Source of the DNA: a virus
Reading direction: 5' to 3' (one strand)
IMG/VR virus record: IMGVR_UViG_3300044846_005309
Location: 55,784-119,783 of that record
DNA length: 64,000 nt
A program made the translations under genes and the position numbers. This document shows positions 24,706 to 34,245 of the stretch, piece by piece (position 1 is the first letter of the stretch; each line of letters begins with the position of its first letter). Under the pieces are notes generated by a model. The model ran no database searches. It saw nothing but the letters and a program-made list of their open reading frames with translations, and was not told the origin of the DNA.

Positions 24706-24713
24706 AAAAGTGC

Positions 24714-24741
24714 TTGACTTTAAGAGAAAAAGTACCATTAT
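24714..24741 (+). promoter_or_regulatory. sigma70-like promoter of the tRNA array
   Basis: TTGACT-16 bp (ending GTAC)-CATTAT; same architecture recurs at 32032, 32352 and 33788. Confidence 0.7.
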
Positions 24742-24761
24742 ATGTAAATATTAAATAACAA

Positions 24762-24848
24762 ATGATCAAATCCATAACCAGTTCAACAATTAATCCAGCA
24801 CAATGCGATACATTCGCCTGGGTTCATTATGAACTGGGCAGGGTTTAA
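24762..24848 (+). CDS. putative attenuator leader peptide MIKSITSSTINPAQCDTFAWVHYELGRV
   Basis: ATG 20 nt after the -10 box; 28 codons encode all 20 amino acids; stop codon lies in the antiterminator 5' arm. Confidence 0.75.
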   Translation: MIKSITSSTINPAQCDTFAWVHYELGRV

Positions 24849-24880
24849 AGCAAATTTTCTAACGAAAAACTTTAAACCCT
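24840..24880 (+). promoter_or_regulatory. antiterminator stem
   Basis: AGGGTTTAAAG (24840-24850) is the perfect reverse complement of CTTTAAACCCT (24870-24880), which overlaps the terminator 5' arm. Confidence 0.75.
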
Positions 24881-24905
24881 AGGCCTTAAAAACCTAGGGT
24901 TTTTT
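24874..24905 (+). terminator. intrinsic terminator (attenuator)
   Basis: AAACCCTAGG-9 nt loop-CCTAGGGTTT running into a 6-T tract. Confidence 0.8.
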
Positions 24906-25131
24906 AATGCGAGCTGCCGCTAACCAAGCAGCCAAGACGTCTTATAAGAGGCATCCAAACCGGCGAATAAAAAGCCGATAGGGGTGAGATCAATAAGTTC
25001 TTTATTAGATGAAATAGAGCGGCCCCGGACGCTCTTTAAAACAATTCGCCGGGCCTTTTTCCTGCCTGCACTGAAGTCTGGGTCCATATCCAGGAAGCAG
25101 CAATGCTCTAGGTGCAGCGTGGGACTATTTT

Positions 25132-25221: not shown

Positions 25222-25587
25222 TTATACAGCATTGTATGCTGTGTTGTAATCTCGATTTTTATTTTGAAGCAATCTATATAAAACTTTGTCGTTCCCCGTT
25301 TGTTTTACTTCAGCATCATTTATATACTTATTTACAGTGTTGTAATCTTTATTAAGCCAAGCAATAGTACCTAAATAGTATTTTACTATACCTTGAGAAT
25401 CGTCGGTTTTAGCTTGGGTAGCTGCTTTATTCATCATAGATATAGCTTCTTGCGTTTTACCTTGAATAGCTAATTCTTGAGCAGCATGCCAAGTGTCTAG
25501 TGAAGGAATATTTAGCGGGTTAGTGTTACCCGTATAATTTTCGATTAACGATGAAAGATACAAATTTACCCTTTTATCAAATTTCAT
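25222..25587 (-). CDS. hypothetical helical (TPR-like) protein inside the tRNA array
   Basis: Antisense ORF filling the gap between two tRNAs; TAAATA upstream on the minus strand. Confidence 0.55.
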   Translation of the reverse strand: MKFDKRVNLYLSSLIENYTGNTNPLNIPSLDTWHAAQELAIQGKTQEAISMMNKAATQAKTDDSQGIVKYYLGTIAWLNKDYNTVNKYINDAEVKQTGNDKVLYRLLQNKNRDYNTAYNAV

Positions 25588-25601
25588 ATACAATATTTAT
25601 T

Positions 25602-25693
25602 GGAAGCGTGGGTGAGTGGATAAAAATCGCTTGTCTTGAAAACAAGAATCGGTGATGAGCCGGTCGTAGGTTCGAATCCTACCGCTTCCGCCA
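25602..25693 (+). tRNA. tRNA-Ser(UGA)
   Basis: CTTGT-CT TGA AA-ACAAG, long variable arm, GCCA end. Confidence 0.92.
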
Positions 25694-25698
25694 ATTTT

Positions 25699-25897
25699 GC
25701 GCGAGGGGTAACCAATAGTCGGTTCTTCAATGGGCCAGTACCCTGAGTGGGCTGAGAAATACCAAGCACAAACAGGAAACCCGTGCCGGACTAGTACGGA
25801 AGTAGGAAGAGATGCATCTCGCTCCCTACAAGTCGGGGTTGGACGAAATTGCTTGGGGCTCTAAGAAGGTAAGGTTGACAGCCTCCCTCGCGCGCCA
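25699..25897 (+). ncRNA. unidentified ~200-nt RNA with tRNA-like acceptor stem and CCA end
   Basis: 5' GCGCGAGGG pairs with 3' CCCTCGCGC, followed by GCCA; GC-rich; flanked by T-rich spacers like the tRNAs. Confidence 0.6.
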
Positions 25898-25902
25898 TTT
25901 TT

Positions 25903-25987
25903 GGGAGTATGGCACAGCGGCAACTGCAGGAGACTGTAAATCTCCCGCCTTCGGGCTTCATTGGTTCGAGTCCAATTGCTCCCACCA
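25903..25987 (+). tRNA. tRNA-Tyr(GUA)
   Basis: GGAGA-CT GTA AA-TCTCC, variable arm, ACCA. Confidence 0.92.
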
Positions 25988-25993
25988 CTTTAA

Positions 25994-26075
25994 GCGGACG
26001 TGTCGTAATGGTAGCCGAGATGGTCTTAGAAGCCATTGCTTATGCGTGTGGGTTCGAGTCCCTCCGTCCGCACCA
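25994..26075 (+). tRNA. tRNA-Leu(UAG)
   Basis: ATGGT-CT TAG AA-GCCAT, variable arm, ACCA. Confidence 0.9.
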
Positions 26076-26094
26076 CTTTAAAATAAATATTATT

Positions 26095-26376
26095 ATGAAA
26101 ACACTAGCATTGCTTATTATTAGTTTGACTATGACCGGCTGCTACGCATCCCCGGTTATTCGTGGCCCTCGAGTAATTGTTGTTGATCCGCATCCTCGGG
26201 TAATTATTGTTGAACCAGCTCCTCGAGTAATTGTAACGAGAGAATACCCTCGTTATCCTAGTGTTTCGTGGCATATTGATGTAAATTTTGGACGGGGTCA
26301 CGGTCATGGCCATGTTTACGGCCCTATTCGTGGTCATTCGAATCCTGGCATTTGGCGTCACTATCGCCATTGGTAA
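26095..26376 (+). CDS. small lipoprotein-like protein (Pro/Arg/His/Gly-rich)
   Basis: MKTLALLIISLTMTGC signal with lipobox; PRVI repeats; start at 26095 because the longer ORF overlaps tRNAs. Confidence 0.6.
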   Translation: MKTLALLIISLTMTGCYASPVIRGPRVIVVDPHPRVIIVEPAPRVIVTREYPRYPSVSWHIDVNFGRGHGHGHVYGPIRGHSNPGIWRHYRHW

Positions 26377-26379
26377 TTT

Positions 26380-26467
26380 GGAAGGATGGCTGAGCGGCCT
26401 ATAGCAGAAGTTTACTAAACTTCCGAAGAGCAATCTTCCGGGGGTTCGAATCCCTCTCCTTCCGCCA
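26380..26467 (+). tRNA. tRNA-Ser(ACU)
   Basis: GAAGT-TT ACT AA-ACTTC, long variable arm, G73, CCA. Confidence 0.85.
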
Positions 26468-32093: not shown

Positions 32094-32187
32094 GGTCCCA
32101 TAGTGTAACTGGAAGCACCGACAGCCTTATAAACTGTGCGCACCTGATTAGTGCCGAGCGGGGGTTCGATTCCCTCTGGGACTACCA
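32094..32187 (+). tRNA. tRNA-Ile(UAU) with long variable arm
   Basis: ACAGC-CT TAT AA-ACTGT, ~20-nt variable arm (GCAC/GTGC stem), ACCA. Confidence 0.8.
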
Positions 32188-32655: not shown

Positions 32656-33059
32656 GGGCGTGTTCTGGATTCTACTTAATAGTGGACTTATTAGAAGCAA
32701 GCAAGGTTGTTAGACCTTATAAAACTAGCAAAAAACATAAATGGCATTGTAAATAGCCTTAAGGGTGCTTTTGCTGCTCCGGTTGCTGCTCTCGCAGCAT
32801 TCTTCAGCACAGAAGAACTCCAATTCGCAGCCTAAGAATTGCGATCGTTATAGTATAGATTCTCGCTATATATTATAACGTTGACTAGCGAGGATGTTGT
32901 TTGAGGTACTTGGAATAAATAAAACAACATTAAAGCTGTTCCTAAAGTACTATACATTGCGTATTAACAGTGTTAAGTACTTATATATTAATACTAAGCT
33001 TGTAGAAACTAGTCGGAAAAGTATTAGGCACGCGGGTTCGACTCCCGCCACGTCCACCA
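32656..33059 (+). ncRNA. ssrA: tmRNA
   Basis: 5' GGGCGTG..GGATTC; 3' GCGGGTTCGACTCCCGCCACGTCCACCA with G3:U70 Ala acceptor; internal tag ORF 32743-32835 ending ...LQFAA*. Confidence 0.9.
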
Positions 33060-33837: not shown

Positions 33838-33914
33838 GCTCGCTTAGCTCAGTTGGTTAGAGCAGGATCTTTACATGGTCAAGGTCGTGGGTTCAAGTCC
33901 TACAGCGAGCACCA
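33838..33914 (+). tRNA. tRNA-Val(UAC)
   Basis: GATC-TT TAC AT-GGTC, ACCA. Confidence 0.9.
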
Positions 33915-33918
33915 TTTT

Positions 33919-34163
33919 CGAAACTCGACTAGGCGAGTATAAATAGAATTTAAGCCTAGTGCGGCTGCTGATACCGTCGACGCTACCAGCAGCATATCGT
34001 CTCGCGTCAGTGACAGTGCACAGTCATAAAGTGTTCCTAGTATAGCCGCTTTCATGGATATATTATACATGCTGATCATAGAAAGAGTGACAAAAACATA
34101 TATGTATTTGCGAAGTATATGTACAAATCACCGCCTATAGCAATAGGGCTAGCGAGACACCCC
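33919..34163 (+). ncRNA. unidentified structured RNA between tRNA-Val and tRNA-fMet
   Basis: No long ORF; stems ACTAGGC/GCCTAGT, GCTGCTG/CAGCAGC and long-range GTCTCGC/GCGAGAC. Confidence 0.45.
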
Positions 34164-34169
34164 TTTTCT

Positions 34170-34245
34170 TGCAGAGTGGAGCAGTAGTAGCTCGACTGGC
34201 TCATAACCAGTAGGTCGACGTGTGCAATTCCGTCCTCTGCATCCA
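34170..34245 (+). tRNA. tRNA-Met(CAU), initiator-like
   Basis: GTGGAGCAGT D-arm, ACTGG-CT CAT AA-CCAGT, atypical T-loop, CCA. Confidence 0.75.

What the first reader, a model, noticed from the sequence alone, without database searches (positions are those of the whole stretch)
25699..25897. Unidentified ~200-nt CCA-ended RNA with a tRNA-like acceptor stem
Seen: between tRNA-Ser and tRNA-Tyr, a GC-rich 199-nt unit whose ends form a 9-bp stem (GCGCGAGGG/CCCTCGCGC) plus G-CCA. It is preceded by a small T-arm-like hairpin (AGGTTGACAGCCT) and has internal stems (e.g. GAGATGCATCTC). It is delimited by the same T-rich spacers as the tRNAs, and I find no anticodon arm or tag ORF. Inference: a tRNA-processed phage ncRNA, possibly a decoy for tRNA-targeting defences or an aminoacylatable mimic.
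Basis: partly seen in the sequence, partly recalled or inferred. Interest (0 to 1): 0.7.

Follow-up and report, generated by a model that had tools for sequence, protein, structure and literature searches.

The report
tRNA-shaped non-coding RNA in phage array
A lake phage carries, between two of its tRNA genes, a 199-base non-coding RNA gene built like a tRNA whose anticodon arm is replaced by a long folded arm; it matches no catalogued RNA family and its job is unknown.

Summary
Window 25699-25897 (+) is a discrete 199-nt unit with a 9-bp GC-rich terminal stem, discriminator G and encoded CCA. It sits 5 nt after tRNA-Ser(UGA) and 5 nt before tRNA-Tyr.

ARAGORN and Rfam 15 find no tRNA, tmRNA, intron-bearing tRNA or other family there. 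The predicted fold is a cloverleaf-type four-way junction: a 9/3 acceptor/T branch, a D-like hairpin, and a 144-nt branched arm where the anticodon arm should be.

It is non-coding: the one homologue found (L090, 98% identical) has a 2-nt indel that breaks every frame. RNA-seq contigs from three studies cover the element, and two of them consist of it alone. One contig from another run joins tRNA-Ser directly to tRNA-Tyr, so the unit is a gain/loss cassette.

Weak points:
- There is no covariation (0 of 53 pairs vary).
- The fold energy is not exceptional.
- The high conservation may partly reflect a recently shared block.
- The family is tiny.

Best reading: a stable RNA cut out by the tRNA-processing enzymes, with the tRNA-like part serving as scaffold and the arm as cargo. 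The classical analogues are T4 RNAC and RNAD. Function is untested.

Earlier notes of this scan describe similar tRNA-ended RNAs in other phages, but not this sequence.

The parts
25602..25693 (+). tRNA-Ser(UGA), upstream neighbour, ends in GCCA
   Evidence: ARAGORN; Rfam tRNA 56.2 bits; 100% identical in L090
25694..25698 (+). 5' spacer ATTTT (the leader that RNase P would remove)
25699..25897 (+). the 199-nt RNA gene (whole unit)
   Evidence: homologue L090:176-376(-) 98% identical; RNA contigs 25717-25892, 25725-25893 and 25713-26039; a contig joining 25698 to 25902 lacks it
25699..25707 (+). 5' strand of the 9-bp acceptor-like stem P1; it pairs with 25885-25893
   Evidence: pair probability 1.0 in the window copy and 0.99 in L090
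25710..25724 (+). D-arm-like hairpin (4-bp stem AACC/GGTT, 7-nt loop AATAGTC); 2 nt after P1 and 0 nt before the long arm
   Evidence: probability 0.73 / 0.64. The loop lacks the GG of tRNA D loops (direct reading; consensus recalled)
25725..25868 (+). 144-nt branched arm in place of an anticodon arm. Predicted helices (element positions): P2 27-30/167-170, P3 34-38/159-163, P3a 43-45/51-53, P4 64-69/153-158, P5 80-84/138-142, P5a 88-90/99-101, P6 104-108/127-131, P6a 111-114/119-122
   Evidence: MFE. Helix probabilities in the window copy are 0.38-0.91, lowest for the inner helices P5 and P5a. No pair varies
25768..25774 (+). variable single-stranded linker of the arm. L090 has a 2-nt insertion and 3 substitutions here
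25809..25820 (+). apical hairpin and 12-nt palindrome GAGATGCATCTC (loop TGCA)
25872..25884 (+). T-arm-like hairpin. It reads as 3 bp (AGG/CCT) with the 7-nt loop TTGACAG, which gives a 9/3 = 12-bp acceptor branch, or as 5 bp with a 3-nt loop
   Evidence: probability 0.76 / 0.70
25885..25897 (+). 3' strand of P1 (25885-25893), discriminator G (25894) and encoded CCA (25895-25897)
25898..25902 (+). 3' spacer TTTTT
   Evidence: one T fewer in the X23 contig
25903..25987 (+). tRNA-Tyr(GUA), downstream neighbour
   Evidence: only 67% identical in L090

Best explanation
The stretch is a gene for a stable non-coding RNA of about 199 nt. It is transcribed together with the phage's tRNAs.

Its ends fold into a tRNA-like chassis:
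- a 9-bp acceptor stem stacked on a 3-bp T-like stem, giving a 12-bp branch;
- a D-like hairpin;
- a four-way junction with linkers of 2/0/3/0 nt;
- a discriminator G and an encoded CCA.

The host's tRNA enzymes would cut it out. RNase P would measure the 12-bp branch and cleave after the ATTTT leader, and 3' trimming would stop at CCA. The chassis would then shield the RNA from decay.

The 144-nt arm in the anticodon-arm position is the working part, the cargo. It most likely binds a protein or another RNA. In effect this is a natural version of the laboratory 'tRNA scaffold'.

Shown here: discreteness, the lack of a conserved frame, presence in RNA libraries, and cassette gain/loss. Inferred: the fold, the processing route and the scaffold role. 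Unknown: what the arm does.
For: Array grammar:
- All 25 units of the array end in CCA, and most are separated by short T-rich spacers. This unit has 5-nt T-rich spacers on both sides.

Fold:
- The predicted fold has a cloverleaf-type junction. P1, the D-like hairpin, P2 and the T-like hairpin have probabilities of 0.73-1.0 in the window copy and 0.64-0.99 in L090.
- A 9/3 acceptor branch is processed, charged and used in E. coli in allo-tRNAs (PMC5389517, Results sections read).
- RNase P measures the acceptor/T stack from the elbow (PMC4919913, passages).
- Replacing the anticodon arm of a tRNA with a foreign RNA gives processed, stable chimeras in E. coli (PMC3753655, passages).

Non-coding:
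- The 2-nt indel in L090 shifts all six frames, and the 44-codon ORF is truncated to 25 codons there.
- 0 of the 4 substitutions that fall inside the ORF are at third codon positions.

RNA:
- Contigs from three RNA-seq studies cover the element. Those of X21 (176 nt) and X22 (169 nt) lie wholly inside it and stop at 25892 and 25893.

Cassette:
- An X19 contig joins 25698 to 25902.
- Relative L081 has another small gene between tRNA-Ser and tRNA-Tyr.
- L090 keeps the unit in synteny.

Variation:
- Taking L090 and the three RNA contigs together, 7 of the 9 changed sites or indels lie in regions the MFE leaves unpaired.

Not a known family:
- No Rfam family or ARAGORN gene fits.
Against: - No base pair is supported by covariation: 0 of 53 pairs vary between the two full-length copies.
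- The one change inside a predicted helix (25860 T>A, in all three RNA contigs) turns a G-U pair of P3 into G-A.
- The fold energy is ordinary, z = -1.41.
- The T-like loop departs from the tRNA consensus at two positions and the D-like loop has no GG (direct reading against a recalled consensus). A tRNA-type elbow, which RNase P and the CCA enzymes use, is therefore not assured.
- No 5' or 3' end was mapped. The RNA contigs start at 25713-25725, not at 25699.
- RNA libraries can hold DNA. The flanking genes cannot serve as a silent control, because relatives lack them.
- The 98% identity to L090 is shared by the 426-nt leader (98.4%) and by tRNA-Thr and tRNA-Ser (100%), so it may be one recently exchanged block rather than selection on this unit.
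- Only one homologue outside near-identical records was found.
Confidence: 0.6

Rival explanations
1. Decoy or sponge for proteins that act on tRNA acceptor ends. The targets would be host defence toxins that modify or cut the CCA end or acceptor stem, or host enzymes such as RNase P, the CCA-adding enzyme or EF-Tu. The RNA offers a tRNA-like end without decoding capacity.
For: It has an acceptor stem, a discriminator base and CCA but no anticodon arm. It sits in a phage tRNA array, and it is an accessory cassette that is present or absent among close relatives, as counter-defence genes often are. Earlier notes of this scan proposed the same for CCA-ended minihelices in other phages (untested leads).
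Against: Nothing here tests binding. A decoy for acceptor ends would not need a conserved 144-nt arm. No anticodon loop exists, so anticodon nucleases are excluded as targets. No defence or counter-defence gene was identified beside it.
Confidence: 0.12
2. An aminoacylated tRNA mimic. The 9/3 branch with G73 and a long protruding arm would be charged, serine being the most plausible amino acid because SerRS reads a long extra arm and G73 rather than the anticodon. The charged RNA would act on the ribosome or in another aminoacyl-dependent process, as tmRNA or plant-virus tRNA-like structures do.
For: Allo-tRNAs with a 9/3 branch and G73 are charged with serine in E. coli (PMC5389517). The unit lies directly after tRNA-Ser(UGA), and the pair is kept together in L090. 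The phage also carries a tmRNA.
Against: There is no anticodon arm and no arm in a clear variable-arm position. G3:U70 is absent, so alanine charging is not expected. No conserved tag frame exists. Neither the tmRNA nor the tRNA-Sec model matches. No SmpB gene was found in the 119.8-kb record, which is only 57% complete.
Confidence: 0.1
3. A decaying tRNA gene that suffered an insertion in its anticodon arm (a pseudogene), or a mere spacer or processing signal without a function of its own.
For: The T-like and D-like loops are degenerate (direct reading). The family is tiny. Relatives do without the unit. The high identity to L090 could be a recently shared block.
Against: All predicted helices are intact in both copies. 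The changes in L090 cluster in one linker. The sequence is nearly the same in RNA libraries of three studies, with 2-5 changes in 169-185 nt. Two RNA contigs consist of it alone.
Confidence: 0.1
4. A small protein gene: the 44-codon ORF at 25730-25864.
For: An ATG-to-TAA frame spans almost exactly the long arm.
Against: The frame is broken by a 2-nt insertion in L090. There is no Shine-Dalgarno sequence in front (direct reading). All 4 substitutions inside it fall at first or second codon positions.
Confidence: 0.02

Closest known systems
Bacteriophage T4 RNAC and RNAD (species 1 and 2 RNAs; rnaC, rnaD)
   Same: They are small stable RNAs encoded inside a phage tRNA gene cluster, next to tRNA genes, with roles still unknown (passages of PMC3014915 and PMC9697503; T4 record). 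T4 rnaC also carries tRNA-like parts: a canonical T arm and paired ends in its MFE fold.
   Different: There is no sequence or model similarity. R1 gives only chance-level scores on the T4 region, at most 4.4 bits. The T4 RNAs are 139 and 119 nt, and their annotated ends are not CCA. The present RNA has a 9-bp stem, a degenerate T loop and an encoded CCA.
Engineered 'tRNA scaffold' chimeras (tRNA with the anticodon arm replaced by a cargo RNA)
   Same: The layout is the same: acceptor stem, T and D arms kept, and the anticodon stem-loop replaced by an inserted structured RNA. The stated reason it works is recognition and precise processing by cellular tRNA enzymes and protection from decay (PMC3753655, passages).
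   Different: That is a laboratory construct built on a true tRNA. Here the T and D loops are not canonical, and processing and stability are inferred, not shown.
Allo-tRNAs with 8/4 or 9/3 acceptor branches (Mukai et al. 2017, PMC5389517)
   Same: A 12-bp acceptor branch split 9/3 with G73. Such tRNAs occur in bacteria, and the related 8/4 forms occur in phage tRNA clusters. They are processed and charged in E. coli.
   Different: Allo-tRNAs keep an anticodon arm and a long variable arm and resemble tRNA-Sec. This RNA has neither, and it does not match the tRNA or tRNA-Sec models.
tmRNA (RF00023)
   Same: A tRNA-like domain whose ends enclose a long internal domain. It is encoded in phage tRNA arrays, including this one at 32656-33059.
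   Different: No G3:U70, no canonical T arm, no conserved tag frame and no pseudoknot ring. It is half the size and has no model match.
Bacterial and phage Y RNAs of the YrlA type (RF02553)
   Same: Non-coding RNAs that contain a tRNA-like module and occur in phages (recalled; also a note of this scan).
   Different: In YrlA the termini form the Ro-binding stem and the tRNA-like module is internal (recalled). Here there is no RF02553 match on the element and no TROVE/Ro60 gene in the record.

Membership tests
tRNA (RF00005) | Cloverleaf with an anticodon stem-loop; match to the tRNA covariance model or a tRNA finder | tested here: not met
   No ARAGORN call at default settings, with introns allowed, or at 70-80% thresholds. 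No RF00005 match on 25699-25897 at the gathering score or at E up to 10.
tRNA (RF00005) | 7-bp acceptor stem, discriminator base, CCA end, and a 12-bp acceptor/T stack | tested here: met
   9-bp stem + G + CCA. With the 3-bp T-like stem, the stack is 12 bp in a 9/3 split.
tRNA (RF00005) | Conserved T loop (T54 Psi55 C56 R57 A58, G53:C61) and D loop (G18 G19) that build the elbow | tested here: inconclusive
   Direct reading against a recalled consensus. Positions 53, 54, 55, 57 and 61 fit; positions 56 (G) and 58 (C) do not; the D-like loop AAUAGUC has no GG.
Intron-containing tRNA (group I intron in the anticodon loop) | tRNA halves around an intron; match to an intron model | tested here: not met
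   ARAGORN with introns finds nothing on the + strand there. No group I intron match in Rfam at E up to 10. Outside the 136-nt insert only a 4-bp stem remains, with no anticodon loop.
tmRNA (RF00023) | G3:U70 alanine identity pair | tested here: not met
   Position 3 pairs as G-C. The phage's real tmRNA at 32656-33059 has G3:U70 (alignment).
tmRNA (RF00023) | Conserved tag reading frame and a match to the tmRNA model | tested here: not met
   Every frame is shifted by the 2-nt indel in L090. No RF00023 match on the element. ARAGORN in tmRNA mode at the 80% threshold finds none.
tmRNA (RF00023) | SmpB partner | tested here: inconclusive
   No PF01668 match in the 119.8-kb record, which is only 57% complete. 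A host SmpB could serve.
YrlA / Y RNA (RF02553) | Match to the model, and a Ro60 (TROVE) gene nearby | tested here: not met
   No RF02553 match on the element at E up to 10. No PF05731 match in the record (record incomplete).
T4 RNAC/RNAD-type stable RNAs of phage tRNA clusters (a kind, not a homologous family) | Encoded within a phage tRNA cluster and co-oriented with the tRNAs | tested here: met
   It lies between tRNA-Ser and tRNA-Tyr on the same strand, with 5-nt spacers.
T4 RNAC/RNAD-type stable RNAs of phage tRNA clusters (a kind, not a homologous family) | Accumulates as a discrete small stable RNA | tested here: inconclusive
   RNA-seq contigs of three studies cover it, and two consist of it alone. 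These are contigs, not reads, so ends and abundance cannot be read.
T4 RNAC/RNAD-type stable RNAs of phage tRNA clusters (a kind, not a homologous family) | Sequence or structure homology to rnaC or rnaD | tested here: not met
   Model R1 on the T4 region with filters off: best score 4.4 bits, and not on rnaC or rnaD.
Allo-tRNA (9/3) | 9/3 split of a 12-bp acceptor branch | tested here: met
   9 bp plus 3 bp with a 7-nt loop. The MFE prefers the alternative of 5 bp with a 3-nt loop.
Allo-tRNA (9/3) | Anticodon arm, long variable arm, tRNA-Sec-like D arm | tested here: not met
   Only one arm lies between the D-like and T-like hairpins. No tRNA-Sec match.

The most novel reading that the evidence does not exclude
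Phages have evolved their own 'tRNA scaffold'. A cloverleaf chassis with a 9/3 acceptor branch and an encoded CCA lets an unrelated 144-nt cargo RNA pass through the host's tRNA maturation, and possibly its charging, machinery. This unit is one member of a wider, uncatalogued class of tRNA-ended cargo RNAs that move as cassettes in phage tRNA arrays. The cargo, or the uncharged or seryl-charged end, would manipulate a host system such as a tRNA-end-targeting defence or a sensor of tRNA charging.
Probability: 0.15. Interest if true: 0.8.

Novelty: new variant of a known kind. Interest (0 to 1): 0.5.

Why it matters
Small stable RNAs in phage tRNA clusters have been known since T4's RNAC and RNAD, and their roles are still unknown (PMC3014915 and PMC9697503, passages). 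This element shows the same theme in an uncultured lake phage with a clearer design: a tRNA chassis plus a long cargo arm, kept as a discrete cassette and visible in environmental RNA.

If the scaffold reading holds, it explains how phages can express and stabilise arbitrary structured RNAs without a dedicated promoter, terminator or processing enzyme. It also gives a simple search rule for more such genes: an array unit ending in N-CCA that no tRNA finder calls.

It also offers a compact natural test case for how far RNase P, the CCA enzymes and the synthetases tolerate a 9/3 branch with a degenerate elbow.

Tried and rejected
Known families. Rfam 15 at gathering scores over the whole window and at E up to 10 over 25650-25950 gave nothing on the element. 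The weak rows (RsmY 10.4 bits, sn2343, HOTTIP_3) are chance-level. ARAGORN variants gave nothing on the + strand. Resemblances that I saw by eye to the TPP riboswitch, RNase P conserved regions, SRP RNA, 6S RNA and the sarcin-ricin loop were dropped, because no model matched and the strand order or pairing did not fit.

Homologue hunting.
- blastn (distant mode) of the element against 50,697 phage records: no match. A 4-kb query matched only tRNAs.
- 34 loci around bilin-reductase relatives and 31 around exonuclease relatives: none holds the element. The close relatives L050-L056 end before the array. A 24-nt match in L012, L014 and L016 lies in coding sequence.
- My first 16-mer gave 14 chance hits. 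It happened to span the variable linker.
- The neighbour protein P0001 has 4 relatives. The loci found with it, L081 and L082, lack the element.
- The tRNA-Ser 3' end found 22 viral loci, of which only L090 holds the element.
- Two further 16-mers found only L090 plus chance hits.
- A 20-mer in genome contigs gave 0 matches.
- Model R1 found nothing beyond the window and L090 in the 48 + 12 + 5 loci given to it out of about 130 held. It also found nothing in L081, in 12 further whole records or genomes (3 of the 5), or in 151 genomes of the family of G001. The tool notes that an empty answer there shows little.
- I did not run R1 on the remaining loci. blastn and nhmmer covered L002-L049, and blastn covered L050-L080.

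Host clue. The tRNA-Ser 28-mer occurs in 5 bacterial genome records: candidate-phyla-radiation bacteria (Yanofskybacteria, Peribacteria) and Pelagibacteraceae. This is too scattered to name a host.

Expression.
- X19 shows no cover over the element. Its library is labelled RNA but is probably DNA, so I use only its joint.
- Parts without cover in X21-X23 are not used as evidence.
- Only 4 of the 24 listed runs were laid.

Covariation: none to count.

Loop-loop pairing. UAGUC (25716-25720) is complementary to GACUA (25789-25793), which would be a 5-bp kissing contact between the D-like loop and the P5a loop. By my rough count this has a chance probability of a few percent, and no sequence variation tests it. 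I keep it as an idea only.

Partner genes. No TROVE, SmpB or CCA-adding enzyme family was found in the record. The record is 57% complete.

Literature. Four searches turned up no description of this RNA. I saw listings and abstracts only, except for the passages and sections named above. Supplementary files were not opened. The supplementary figures of PMC5389517 on irregular tRNA polycistrons might show related forms.
Full report
WHAT IS THERE. The window is part of a 119,783-bp IMG/VR virus record that is estimated to be 57% complete. It encodes a family-B DNA polymerase, a DnaB-like helicase, a tail sheath and baseplate parts. It also encodes a bilin reductase and a haem oxygenase. The polymerase is only about 30% identical to that of any cultured phage. 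Eighteen of the 24 listed sequencing runs hold at least 0.98 of the sampled words of the stretch. All 18 are lake-water metagenomes, and all are marked as possible sources.

Between 25132 and 34326 lie 22 tRNA genes and a tmRNA called by ARAGORN. Rfam adds one more tRNA and a Pistol ribozyme match.

The finding lies between tRNA-Ser(UGA) at 25602-25693 and tRNA-Tyr at 25903-25987. A 9-bp stem (25699-25707 with 25885-25893, eight of its pairs G-C) is followed by G and CCA. The spacers are ATTTT and TTTTT. All 25 units of the array, counting this one, end in CCA, and most are separated by short T-rich spacers.

IS IT MORE THAN CHANCE. The stem alone is not. Eleven places in the record have a perfect 9-bp stem closed by N-CCA, against a mean of 6.7 in 30 shuffles. 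The fold energy is unremarkable: -69.9 kcal/mol, z = -1.41, with 17 of 200 shuffles as good. The case rests on four other results.

First, a syntenic copy exists in another IMG/VR contig, at L090:176-376 on the minus strand. The gene order there is tRNA-Thr, tRNA-Ser, element, tRNA-Tyr, tRNA-Leu. That copy is 98% identical (197 of 201 aligned columns). In the same pair of contigs, tRNA-Tyr is 67% and tRNA-Leu 62% identical, and two upstream ORFs are 77% and 87% identical.

Second, five of the six differences in L090 sit in one linker at 25768-25771: a 2-nt insertion and three substitutions. The sixth is 25823 T>C.

Third, contigs from three RNA-seq runs of three studies cover the element with 2-5 changes. 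X21 has a 176-nt contig equal to 25717-25892, and X22 has a 169-nt contig equal to 25725-25893. Each of these lies wholly inside the element. X23 has a 383-nt contig that starts at 25713 and runs on through tRNA-Tyr.

Fourth, one contig of run X19 (labelled RNA, probably DNA) carries a tRNA-Ser identical to the window's and joins 25698 directly to 25902. It therefore lacks exactly this unit plus four T. Another relative, L081, has a small reverse-strand gene between tRNA-Ser and tRNA-Tyr instead. The unit is thus a discrete cassette that relatives either have or lack.

CAVEATS ON THESE POINTS. The 98% identity is not peculiar to the element. The 426-nt leader upstream is 98.4% identical, and tRNA-Thr and tRNA-Ser are 100% identical between the same two contigs. 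The whole stretch may therefore be one recently shared block. The binomial figure I computed (6.6e-8, for at most 5 differences at 13.6% divergence) assumes otherwise and should not be leaned on.

RNA libraries can contain DNA. The neighbouring protein genes cannot serve as a silent control, because relatives lack them: X23 skips 26040-26374, and L090 lacks the 25222-25593 gene. What remains is that two independent low-depth RNA assemblies produced contigs confined to the element, both stopping at 25892/25893 with no loose end listed there. The tool itself rates that as a weak hint of an RNA end. No contig reaches 25699.

IT IS NOT CODING AND NOT A KNOWN RNA. A 44-codon ORF (25730-25864) spans almost exactly the long arm. 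The 2-nt insertion in L090 shifts all frames and truncates this ORF to 25 codons. None of the four substitutions inside it falls at a third codon position.

ARAGORN finds no tRNA, intron-bearing tRNA or tmRNA on this strand, even at lowered thresholds. Rfam 15 gives nothing at gathering scores and only chance-level rows at E up to 10. Position 3 pairs as G-C, not G-U. The phage's genuine tmRNA has G3:U70.

No Ro60, SmpB or CCA-adding enzyme family is found in the incomplete record.

ANATOMY. In the MFE fold, the parts follow in this order:
- P1, the 9-bp terminal stem;
- 2 unpaired nt;
- a D-like hairpin (4 bp, 7-nt loop);
- 0 nt;
- a long arm that opens with P2 (CUUC/GAAG, 25725-25728 with 25865-25868);
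- 3 nt;
- a T-like hairpin at 25872-25884;
- 0 nt;
- the 3' strand of P1.

Linkers of 2/0/3/0 nt compare with 2/1/4-5/0 in a tRNA cloverleaf (recalled). The arm even starts at position 27, where a tRNA's anticodon stem starts.

The T-like hairpin can be read as 3 bp with a 7-nt loop. That makes the acceptor branch 9 + 3 = 12 bp, the length of the canonical 7 + 5 branch. This 9/3 split is documented in allo-tRNAs, which E. coli processes, charges and uses (PMC5389517; abstract and Results sections read).

The chassis helices are the stable part of the ensemble, with probabilities of 0.73-1.0 in the window copy and 0.64-0.99 in L090. The inner helices P5 and P5a are uncertain, at 0.13-0.50.

The arm (25725-25868) is predicted as a branched rod with two three-way junctions, a 9 x 9 internal loop whose 5' side is the variable linker, and an apical hairpin that is a 12-nt palindrome (25809-25820).

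Of the nine changed sites or indels seen in L090 and the RNA contigs, seven lie in regions the MFE leaves unpaired. One is the terminal pair of P4. One (25860 T>A) breaks a G-U pair of P3. That is at best marginal support, roughly p = 0.06 by my own binomial estimate, and the linker changes are not independent. No pair covaries: 0 of 53.

The T-like loop fits the recalled tRNA consensus at positions 53, 54, 55, 57 and 61 but not at 56 and 58. The D-like loop has no GG. A five-base complementarity between the D-like loop and the P5a loop is noted but untested.

HOW IT MOST LIKELY WORKS. I commit to the scaffold reading at about 0.6. The unit is co-transcribed with its neighbours. There is no terminator-like site on the + strand between the units, and only a weak promoter-like match at 25565-25594. 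The host's tRNA machinery then excises it.

RNase P measures the acceptor/T stack from the elbow rather than reading sequence (PMC4919913, passages). The encoded CCA marks the 3' end, as it does for all the other units. The tRNA-like chassis then protects the RNA. This is what the engineered tRNA scaffold does when a foreign RNA replaces the anticodon arm (PMC3753655, passages). The arm is the functional cargo.

The processing steps, the stability and the role of the arm are inferred. None is shown.

The rivals are:
- a decoy for proteins that act on tRNA acceptor ends (0.12);
- an aminoacylated mimic, serine being the least unlikely identity given G73, the 9/3 branch and the protruding arm (0.10);
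- a decaying tRNA or mere spacer (0.10);
- a small protein gene (0.02).

COMPARISON WITH WHAT IS KNOWN. The nearest classical case is T4 RNAC and RNAD. These are small stable RNAs in the T4 tRNA cluster whose roles are still unknown (PMC3014915 and PMC9697503, passages). In the T4 record they lie right after tRNA-Arg. The MFE fold of rnaC shows a canonical T arm and paired ends. So 'a tRNA-like stable RNA inside a phage tRNA cluster' is a known kind.

The present RNA is not homologous to them. It is not in Rfam. It differs in design: a 9/3 branch, an encoded CCA and a single long arm in the anticodon position. It is neither a tRNA, an allo-tRNA, a tmRNA nor a YrlA-type Y RNA by the tests listed in the membership table.

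Earlier notes of this scan describe other uncatalogued tRNA-ended RNAs in phage tRNA arrays on other DNA. A sequence look-up found no look-alike of this one except the same stretch. I could not compare sequences, so whether they form one class is open.

HOW WIDE IS THE FAMILY. It is narrow in what I could search. The known copies are the window's record, L090, and near-identical sequences in three RNA runs. The following searches found nothing else:
- 50,697 phage records by blastn;
- IMG/VR by three exact words of the element;
- one species-representative genome set by a 20-mer;
- model R1 on 66 loci, 12 further whole records or genomes, and 151 genomes of one bacterial family.

Records very near the window's may be hidden by the tools.

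VERDICT. This is a real, discrete, non-coding, probably expressed RNA gene with tRNA-like ends. It is a new family, and a new variant of an old, unsolved kind. The fold is plausible but unproven, and the function is unknown. I score interest at 0.5. The design is neat and testable and fits an emerging pattern. The evidence base, however, is two genomic copies and three contigs, with no covariation and no mapped ends.

Noticed in passing
window 33923-33974 (+): Pistol ribozyme match (RF02679, 39.8 bits against a gathering score of 34.5), 9 nt after tRNA-Val (33838-33914). This is a self-cleaving ribozyme inside the tRNA array.
   Followed up: no
window 34170-34242 (+): Rfam calls a tRNA here (49.2 bits) that ARAGORN does not list.
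   Followed up: no
window 32094-32187 (+): tRNA with a UAU anticodon and a long variable arm. Its acceptor branch is the ordinary 7/5, not 8/4 or 9/3. UAU is the commonest anticodon among allo-tRNAs in PMC5389517.
   Followed up: partly
window 24706-25131 (+): The 426-nt non-coding leader ahead of the first tRNA is 98.4% identical between the window and L090, while the HNH gene just upstream is 86.6% identical. Either the leader is strongly constrained or the stretch from leader to element is a recently exchanged block.
   Followed up: partly
window 25222-25593 (-) and 26095-26376 (+): Small genes inserted between tRNAs are variable. L090 lacks the 121-aa gene between tRNA-Thr and tRNA-Ser. 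The X23 contig skips 26040-26374, which holds the lipoprotein-like gene. In L081 the relative of the 121-aa gene sits after tRNA-His instead. The array is a hot spot of gene gain and loss.
   Followed up: partly
L081:827-941 (-): A 115-nt gap between tRNA-Arg(ACG) and tRNA-Leu in a relative's array. Its ends pair (GAACAG / CTGTTC) and it is GC-rich. It may be another unannotated structured RNA; it does not end in CCA.
   Followed up: no
L002:419-857 and L003:3604-4042 (+): Permuted (two-piece) tmRNA genes with tag ANDELFALAA lie about 1.7 kb upstream of the bilin-reductase relatives in two IMG/VR contigs.
   Followed up: no
window 25666-25693 (+): The last 28 nt of tRNA-Ser(UGA) recur exactly in 22 IMG/VR contigs with quite different neighbours, and in 5 bacterial genome records (candidate-phyla-radiation bacteria and Pelagibacteraceae).
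   Followed up: partly
window 26380-26467 (+): tRNA-Ser with the anticodon ACU, which has A at position 34. The same is present in relative L081 at 647-736.
   Followed up: no
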